Shown here: positions 8,867 through 9,284 of the stretch, one piece after another
Layout of the letters: each line of letters begins with the position of its first letter
Numbering within the stretch: the stretch's first letter is position 1
Source of the DNA: Tubiluchus corallicola
Lineage: Eukaryota; Animalia; Priapulida
DNA length: 35,970 nucleotides
Direction: 5' to 3'
Assembly (NCBI GenBank): GCA_030141605.1
Contig: JAQGDQ010001531.1
Location: 1-35,970, forward strand
Notes under the pieces: generated by a model
The model's database searches: none
Seen by the model: the letters and a program-made list of their open reading frames with translations, nothing else
What the model was told of the DNA's origin: nothing
Position numbers and translations under genes: made by a program

Positions 8867-8974
8867 TTTCTTTAGCAAATCACGAGCGTCGGGCGTCAAA
8901 TATGGAGGAAGGTTGAGTTTGGCTTTCATTATTTTGTCAATCGTCTTCTTACGATTTTCCGCTGTAAAAGGCGG
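8867..8974 (-). CDS. RPS6KB: S6K alternative exon 9b ([36 protein letters not shown])
   Basis: 108 nt, phase 0/0, TTTCAG| and |GTAGGT; paralogous to 9177-9284. Confidence 0.92.
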
Positions 8975-9019
8975 CTGAAAGAAACAGATATAAATAAAAG
9001 CTTTCGTTGTAGAAAAGGA

Positions 9020-9156
9020 GGAGCCCGGATCATCCGTCAGATGAAGGAGAGCAACTCTGGCCTTGTGCGAAGCGCCTCTTTTTCGACTTATCAGGAAAAG
9101 TGTAGCAAATACTGCCACAAGGCCAATGTCTCTCACTGACGGAGGTGCCGAGCTCC
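9020..9156 (-). promoter_or_regulatory. Intronic RNA stem-loop between exons 9a and 9b (putative splicing regulator)
   Basis: Nested complementary blocks on the transcript: GGAGCUCGG/CCGGGCUCC, UCCGUCAG/CUGACGGA and UGGCCUUGUG/CACAAGGCCA. Arms at 9020-9067 and 9116-9156. Confidence 0.75.
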
Positions 9157-9176
9157 GTACGTCAATCGATACCTAC

Positions 9177-9284
9177 TTTCTTAAGTAACGACTTGGCATC
9201 TTGGGTTAAATACGGAGGAAGCACGAGCTTCCCCTTCAAGATCTTTTCGATCGTCTTCTTGCGATTTTCGGCGGTGAAGGGCGG
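9177..9284 (-). CDS. RPS6KB: S6K alternative exon 9a ([36 protein letters not shown])
   Basis: 108 nt, phase 0/0, TTTCAG| and |GTAGGT; paralogous to 8867-8974. Confidence 0.9.

What the first reader, a model, noticed from the sequence alone, without database searches (positions are those of the whole stretch)
8867..9284. Tandemly duplicated, probably mutually exclusive kinase-domain exon in p70 S6 kinase
Seen: two 108-nt phase-0 exons 202 nt apart, both with TTTCAG| and |GTAGGT. They are 29/36 identical in amino acids (E/D, L/M, G/A, V/N, Q/P, K/R, S/D) but differ at 32/108 nt, many at silent positions, and neither has a stop or indel. Known: this segment spans kinase subdomain X (alphaG region), a substrate and partner docking surface; JNK and p38alpha use mutually exclusive exons in the subdomain IX-X region; vertebrate RPS6KB1 has one exon here. 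Inference: an old duplication with both copies under purifying selection, giving two S6K isoforms with different C-lobe surfaces. I know of no characterised case in S6K but cannot exclude annotated isoforms in related species.
Basis: partly seen in the sequence, partly recalled or inferred. Interest (0 to 1): 0.88.

Follow-up and report, generated by a model that had tools for sequence, protein, structure and literature searches.

The report
Duplicated helix exon in S6 kinase
The growth-control kinase S6K gene of what is likely a priapulid worm carries two old, intact copies of one kinase-domain exon; one copy is seen spliced in alone, the other is likely a rarer alternative, and a predicted RNA fold between them would allow only one at a time, which is a new example of a known kind of splicing switch.

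Summary
Observation confirmed exactly. The copies are old and conserved: synonymous sites are saturated (pS 0.83, pN 0.14). One transcript contig joins exon 8 to copy b to exon 10, skipping a. Splicing of copy a is not shown.

Frame, U12 and linear steric rules do not keep the copies apart. Instead, the 202-nt spacer is predicted to fold a strong hairpin (1 of 200 shuffles). Its left arm can alternatively pair upstream of copy a and loop it out (1 of 1000; weaker). This is the layout of human ATE1.

I found no second copy in other animals. All seven differing residues occur in other S6Ks, and the first half of helix αG is identical, so a large functional change is unsupported. I found no S6K case in print. 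The scan had no earlier S6K note, but lists several other duplicated exons in this genome.

Verdict: new member of a known kind; interest 0.42.

The parts
9177..9284 (-). Exon 9a, upstream copy (36 aa, alphaG to alphaH). Intact; splicing not shown.
   Evidence: no contig laid on it
8867..8974 (-). Exon 9b, downstream copy. Spliced between exons 8 and 10 in the X1 contig; 34 of 36 identical to the Priapulus caudatus RefSeq segment.
8975..9176 (-). 202-nt intron between the copies, GC about 0.5, predicted long hairpin
9116..9172 (-). Central element (R3-like, intron +5 to +61). Left arm of the hairpin (9156-9116); 9172-9125 is also complementary to the intron upstream of exon a.
9020..9067 (-). 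Right arm of the hairpin (R4-like). Holds the branch-point-like CUGAC (A at 9037, -63 from exon b).
9301..9350 (-). Upstream partner (R1-like). Covers the pyrimidine tract and both CUCAC branch-point candidates (9335, 9331) of exon a.
8991..8995 (-). Proximal branch-point candidates of exon b (UUUAU, -17 and -21), 45-49 unpaired nt from the exon a donor once the hairpin is folded
   Evidence: distance counted from its pair table
13585..13675 (-). Constitutive exon 8 (upstream neighbour)
5677..5739 (-). Constitutive exon 10 (downstream neighbour)
990..24036 (-). Host gene, p70 S6 kinase: 13 coding exon positions mapped; the C-terminal exon(s) are not resolved

Best explanation
This S6 kinase gene holds two old, intact copies of its alphaG-alphaH exon; copy b is spliced in alone, copy a is likely a minor mutually exclusive alternative, and competing RNA pairings are predicted to enforce the choice. 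Predicted mechanism: a central stretch of the 202-nt intron between the copies first pairs with the branch-point and pyrimidine region upstream of a, loops a out and gives b by default. Once the far end of the intron is transcribed, the same stretch can refold into a more stable hairpin. That frees a, buries one branch-point candidate of b, and leaves only 45-49 unpaired nt between the donor of a and the proximal branch candidates of b, which would block joining a to b. The two kinases would differ at 7 tolerant positions, so fine-tuning rather than a new function is expected. Shown: duplication, constraint, 8-b-10 splicing. Inferred: use of a (about 0.75), RNA-structure control if a is used (about 0.6).
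For: Constraint: pS 0.83 (saturated) against pN 0.14; 0 of 20,000 neutral simulations match. Splicing: one 437-nt contig of run X1 covers part of exon 7, exon 8, b and runs on into exon 10, with a canonical 7-8 joint. The segment is alphaG plus most of alphaH, so skipping or doubling it would break the fold (inference). Hairpin: -66.8 kcal/mol, z -3.46, 1 of 200 shuffles; 5th of 114 windows by z and 9th by energy, with every better window inside the 41-nt satellite; core helices have pair probability near 1. Enclosure of a: -42.7 kcal/mol, 1 of 1000 shuffles, strongest of 13 exons, next -29.9. The only other match to a central 15-mer in 36 kb is its complement upstream of a. In growing transcripts the enclosing stem holds 27-35 bp until the outer right arm appears, then flips to the hairpin. 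The same R1/R3/R4 layout is proven in ATE1 (PMC7797038, sections read).
Against: No transcript with copy a was seen, and the Priapulus RefSeq record is b-type only. No orthologous intron was available, so there is no covariation test. The windows for the pairing tests were chosen after seeing the match. Constitutive exons 4 and 6 also beat their shuffles (3 and 2 of 200). A second window size gave 7 of 1000. The full-fold test gave 8 of 300 by base pairs and a non-significant 28 of 300 by energy. The whole 591-nt region is not unusually stable (z -1.51, 7 of 100). The inner 15 bp of the enclosing stem can coexist with the hairpin at +2.6 kcal/mol, so the two folds are not fully exclusive. At equilibrium the hairpin wins by 7.6 kcal/mol, which alone would favour a, so the b default needs a kinetic argument. 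Unlike ATE1, the two partners are not alike in sequence (903 of 1000 shuffles score as well), and the right arm ends 46 nt short of the acceptor of b.
Confidence: 0.5

Rival explanations
1. The exons are mutually exclusive, but the choice is made by RNA-binding proteins on the long GU/CU-rich tract and distal branch point of a. The predicted folds are incidental or minor.
For: Exon a has an 82-nt AG-free zone and only distal YUNAY branch candidates at -51 and -47, which recalled knowledge links to regulated exons. Most human MXE clusters are not explained by the simple mechanisms (PMC5740500 passage). The enclosure statistics are moderate.
Against: The hairpin is the most stable non-satellite fold in the gene, and one element is complementary to partners upstream of both exons.
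Confidence: 0.25
2. Copy a was functional for a long time but is now silent or nearly so. The enclosing stem simply represses it and b is constitutive.
For: Only b is seen in X1 and in Priapulus RefSeq. Copy a is the more diverged (31 of 36 against 34 of 36 to Priapulus). No second sample of a exists to show current constraint. Synonymous change is fast: 6 of 108 nt in b between X1 and the window, so saturation need not mean great age.
Against: Frame and both splice sites are intact; there are at most 5 amino-acid changes on the a side relative to Priapulus, all to residues used by other S6Ks. Contigs drop rare variants, so one run cannot show absence.
Confidence: 0.17
3. Copy a is a cassette that is included together with b, giving a 36-residue insertion and an unstable or inactive kinase that damps S6K output.
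For: Both-in is in frame, so NMD would not remove it. An intron hairpin can also bring splice sites together (PMC11802352 passage).
Against: A damping insert would not need to keep the S6K residues, yet pN is low. The only transcript seen has b alone.
Confidence: 0.06

Closest known systems
Human ATE1 exons 7a/7b with competing R1R3/R3R4 pairings (PMC7797038; passages and two sections read)
   Same: Two tandem homologous exons. One element in the intervening intron is complementary both to a region upstream of the first exon and to a region upstream of the second.
   Different: The ATE1 pairings are conserved and proven by mutagenesis, R1 and R4 resemble each other, and both hide a 3' splice site. 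Here the pairings are only predicted, the partners are not alike, the right arm stops 46 nt before acceptor b, the central element begins at the donor of a, and no long-range R2R5 module was sought.
MAPK14 (p38alpha) and MAPK8/9 (JNK 6a/6b) duplicated exons (supplement rows of PMC8373072 and PMC5740500; table passages of PMC8699841)
   Same: A homologous exon swap in the kinase C-lobe. The MAPK14 exon begins right after the 'LFPG' motif, at the position equivalent to this exon's start.
   Different: MAPK family rather than AGC family. The MAPK14 exons are 80 nt, so doubling shifts the frame; here 108 nt keeps the frame. The MAPK14 variants differ across their first helix, whereas here the first half of alphaG is identical. 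Both MAPK forms are validated in transcripts.
Tandem duplicated exon substitutions in general (PMC8373072, PMC9741552, PMC5740500, PMC6071210; passages)
   Same: Equal length, same phase, adjacent homologous internal exons with constrained protein sequence.
   Different: No RPS6K gene is in the two human supplements searched (0 hits). This case appears lineage-restricted.
Vertebrate paralogues S6K1 and S6K2
   Same: Copy b matches S6K1 at N21; copy a matches bird S6K2 at G18 and V21.
   Different: Bird S6K2 is 32 of 36 to a and 33 of 36 to b, and S6K1 is 29 and 31. There is no clean a = S6K2, b = S6K1 correspondence.

Membership tests
p70 S6 kinase (RPS6KB) | Best match to S6K, with colinear kinase domain, turn and hydrophobic motif exons | tested here: met
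Tandem-duplicated mutually exclusive exons | Adjacent homologous exons of equal length and phase with canonical splice sites | tested here: met
Tandem-duplicated mutually exclusive exons | Both copies under purifying selection | tested here: met
   between copies; 5 of 5 checkable X1 differences in b are silent. No second sample exists for a.
Tandem-duplicated mutually exclusive exons | Each copy found spliced alone | tested here: inconclusive
Tandem-duplicated mutually exclusive exons | Double inclusion absent or rare | not testable with these tools
   only one run of contigs, no raw reads
NMD-enforced MXE | Double inclusion shifts the frame | tested here: not met
   both-in is open, 454 codons
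U2/U12 incompatibility MXE | One flanking intron has a U12 donor | tested here: not met
   donors of exon 8, a and b are GTAAGT, GTAGGT, GTAGGT; the U12 consensus is recalled
Linear steric MXE | Donor to branch point under 50 nt (threshold from PMC5740500) | tested here: not met
   candidates lie 135-186 nt from the donor; 45-49 nt only with the predicted hairpin folded
ATE1-type competing RNA structure | Intervening element complementary to regions upstream of both exons | tested here: met
   predicted only; moderate
ATE1-type competing RNA structure | The two upstream partners resemble each other | tested here: not met
   903 of 1000 shuffles align as well
ATE1-type competing RNA structure | Conservation or covariation of the pairings | not testable with these tools
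   no orthologous priapulid intron was reachable
ATE1-type competing RNA structure | Mutation and rescue change the splicing | not testable with these tools
   needs a minigene

The most novel reading that the evidence does not exclude
A priapulid-lineage S6 kinase independently evolved an ATE1-like RNA switch of about 350 nt. Transcription speed decides whether a central element loops out exon a or closes the intron hairpin, which toggles the mTOR effector between two alphaG-alphaH variants with different partners or stability. This would be the first kinase-domain isoform swap in S6K and a very compact co-transcriptional splicing switch.
Probability: 0.25. Interest if true: 0.65.

Novelty: new member of a known kind. 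Interest (0 to 1): 0.42.

Why it matters
No homologous exon swap inside the S6K kinase domain was found in the searches made. If copy a is used, it shows that the alphaG region has been duplicated independently in an AGC kinase, as in p38 and JNK. The whole predicted switch fits in about 350 nt, so competing-structure and folding-order models can be tested in one small minigene. The importance is limited by three things: the organism has no genetic tools, the substitutions are mild, and the event looks lineage-restricted.

Tried and rejected
No whole genome is held for the window.

RNA search: no RNA holder was listed; only X1 was added by species label. Exon a had no cover in X1; contigs drop rare variants, so this is no evidence either way.

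Ancient a = S6K2, b = S6K1 split: suggested by bird S6K2 topping the exon a search, rejected because bird S6K2 is intermediate. A V/N split at position 21 also separates two worm paralogue types in metagenome loci, but that column takes at least 7 residues, so I give it no weight.

Pan-animal duplication: not found. Of 23 genomic loci picked from the 71, 14 show both neighbours and a single copy (counted by eye). Of 464 proteins holding the segment, among 504 fetched, 2 hold it twice, 384 and 353 residues apart, which are whole-domain doubles. Of 34 same-species record sets, 32 have one version and 2 differ by gene-model insertions or deletions, not by a swap.

Homology of the two pairing partners, and of the two downstream introns: rejected (903 and 786 of 1000 shuffles). 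Pairing of the donor region of a with the intron downstream of b: -14.8 kcal/mol, outside the top 12 of 191 windows, rejected. The short 21-nt version of the central element against the region upstream of a was also outside the top 12 of 191. Rfam: 0 matches at E up to 1. The hairpin as a repeat or MITE: not among the repeat families shown, but this cannot be excluded without the genome.

Surface exposure of the 7 residues could not be computed, because the fold tool gave only secondary structure, for the Priapulus protein. The search for S6K1 alphaG literature returned one unrelated review listing, so the 'docking surface' role is recalled, not checked. The two exon peptides could not be searched in their spliced full-length context.

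Full report
Observation. Exon a (9284-9177) and exon b (8974-8867) lie on the minus strand, are 108 nt each and 202 nt apart, and have the same splice-site hexamers. They share 29 of 36 residues and differ at 32 of 108 nt. Both peptides match human S6K1 best. tblastn with database S6Ks maps a colinear gene from 24036 to 990. Thirteen exon positions with AG/GT ends give an open frame with a, with b, with both, or with neither. The closest protein is Priapulus caudatus S6K (P0007), so the animal is likely a priapulid. This is inferred from similarity.

Age and constraint. Nei-Gojobori counts give pS 0.83, which is saturated, and pN 0.14. None of 20,000 random placements of 32 changes kept the peptide within 7 changes and free of stops. 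With only 16 changes the figure is 1.5-1.6%. The flanking introns of the two copies no longer align. The Priapulus segment shares 5 of the 7 b states and 2 of the 7 a states, so a has changed more. The duplication cannot be dated against that split. Run X1 differs from the window at 6 of 108 nt in b, 6 in exon 8 and 2 in the covered part of exon 7. The 11 of these 14 differences that could be placed are all silent. Silent sites therefore move fast here, and 'old' is relative.

Splicing. The only run offered was X1, a contig set guessed to be RNA. One 437-nt contig covers b exactly, and its loose ends are exon 8 and exon 10 letters. The same contig shows the canonical exon 7-8 joint and continues from exon 8 straight into b-type codons. 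So 8-b-10, skipping a, is shown. Use of a is not shown.

Protein effect. In a model of the Priapulus protein (53-row alignment, mean pLDDT 67.6; ten-residue block means 70-92 over this segment) the exon is residues 270-305, with alphaG at 274-285 and alphaH at 297-306. Two differences fall in late alphaG, two in the loop and three at the start of alphaH. The first 12 residues are identical. Among 130 distinct S6K versions of the segment, both residues of every pair occur elsewhere: E81/D49, L126/M1, G84/A29, V23/N63, Q10/P59, K23/R106, S3/D98. The swap looks like fine-tuning. Skipping or doubling the exon would remove or duplicate two core helices, which is inferred to be incompatible with a normal fold.

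Distribution. I found no second copy outside this window. None of 71 metagenome loci has two copies. In 14 of 23 genomic loci examined closely, both neighbours are visible around a single copy. No protein among 464 holds a tandem copy, and none of 34 same-species record sets shows a swap. These negatives do not cover other priapulid genomes.

What keeps the copies apart. Frame, U12 and linear steric rules all fail (threshold of 50 nt from PMC5740500). The 202-nt intron is predicted to fold a hairpin of about 40 bp from +21 to +157, at -66.8 kcal/mol, z -3.46, 1 of 200 shuffles. It is the best of 114 windows in the gene outside the 41-nt satellite. It buries a CUGAC branch candidate of b and leaves 45-49 unpaired nt between donor a and the proximal candidates. 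The same left arm, extended to +5, is also complementary to the pyrimidine tract and branch candidates upstream of a: -42.7 kcal/mol, 1 of 1000 shuffles, the strongest of 13 exons, with an independent hint from a pattern search. Folding of growing transcripts gives the a-enclosing stem first and the hairpin only after position 9030-9010 is made. That order would make b the default and a the product of refolding.

Caveats on the RNA model. The test windows were chosen after the match was seen. Exons 4 and 6 also beat their shuffles. A fuller test gives 8 of 300 by pairs and 28 of 300 by energy. The whole region is not unusually stable. Part of the enclosing stem can coexist with the hairpin. 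No covariation test was possible. The hairpin is the firmer prediction, and the competition is moderate.

Comparison with what is known. The layout matches human ATE1, where R3 in the intervening intron pairs with R1 upstream of 7a or R4 upstream of 7b (PMC7797038, passages and two sections read). Here the two partners are not alike and nothing is proven. The protein position parallels the MAPK14 exon pair (supplement rows). JNK 6a/6b forms are tabulated as differing in substrate binding (PMC8699841, passages). RPS6K has 0 hits in the main text of PMC9741552 and PMC8373072 (passages) and in the supplements of PMC8373072 and PMC5740500. Searches listed no S6K case; I saw only their listings. 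PMC6071210 (first fifth and passages) and PMC11802352 (passages) give the general background. Subscription journals and invertebrate MXE databases were not covered, and bioRxiv supplements are closed.

Earlier scan notes. No note matched this sequence. Notes on the same genome also call it a likely priapulid and list several other duplicated exons and one docking/selector system. They are unchecked. They suggest that such duplications are common in this genome, which lowers the surprise of this one.

Verdict. The feature is real and probably a functional mutually exclusive pair, with one arm shown. It is a new member of a known kind. Interest is 0.42, carried mainly by the testable RNA switch.

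Noticed in passing
window 30328-35970 (+): An uninterrupted frame of 1881 codons, open at the window end, with Pao peptidase, DUF1759, RT and integrase zinc-binding matches: a BEL/Pao LTR retrotransposon upstream of the gene.
   Followed up: partly
window 6159-8050, 12116-13100, 18077-18820: Intronic tandem arrays with units of 41, 42 and 34 nt. The 41-nt array folds strongly on the pre-mRNA strand.
   Followed up: no
window 4630-5080, 9368-9817, 11028-11462: Three copies of an interspersed repeat; one begins about 85 nt upstream of exon a, just beyond the pairing element.
   Followed up: no
window 20327-20904 (-): Two short open frames that look like a decayed LINE end (likeness recalled, not searched).
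   Followed up: no
window 21188-21256 (-): Constitutive exon 4 also has flanks that pair across it better than shuffles (2-3 of 200; 30 bp).
   Followed up: partly
L045-L071: Worm-like metagenome loci split this exon with an extra intron after codon 14 and fall into two S6K paralogue types; one carries V21 and S32 like copy a, the other N21 like copy b.
   Followed up: partly
window 8867-8974, 13585-13675, 15230-15320: Run X1, under the same species label, differs from the window at about 5% of exon bases, silent where checkable. This suggests a distinct population or cryptic species.
   Followed up: partly
window 1-989: The exon(s) after exon 13 were not resolved; several candidate acceptors give short tails.
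   Followed up: no
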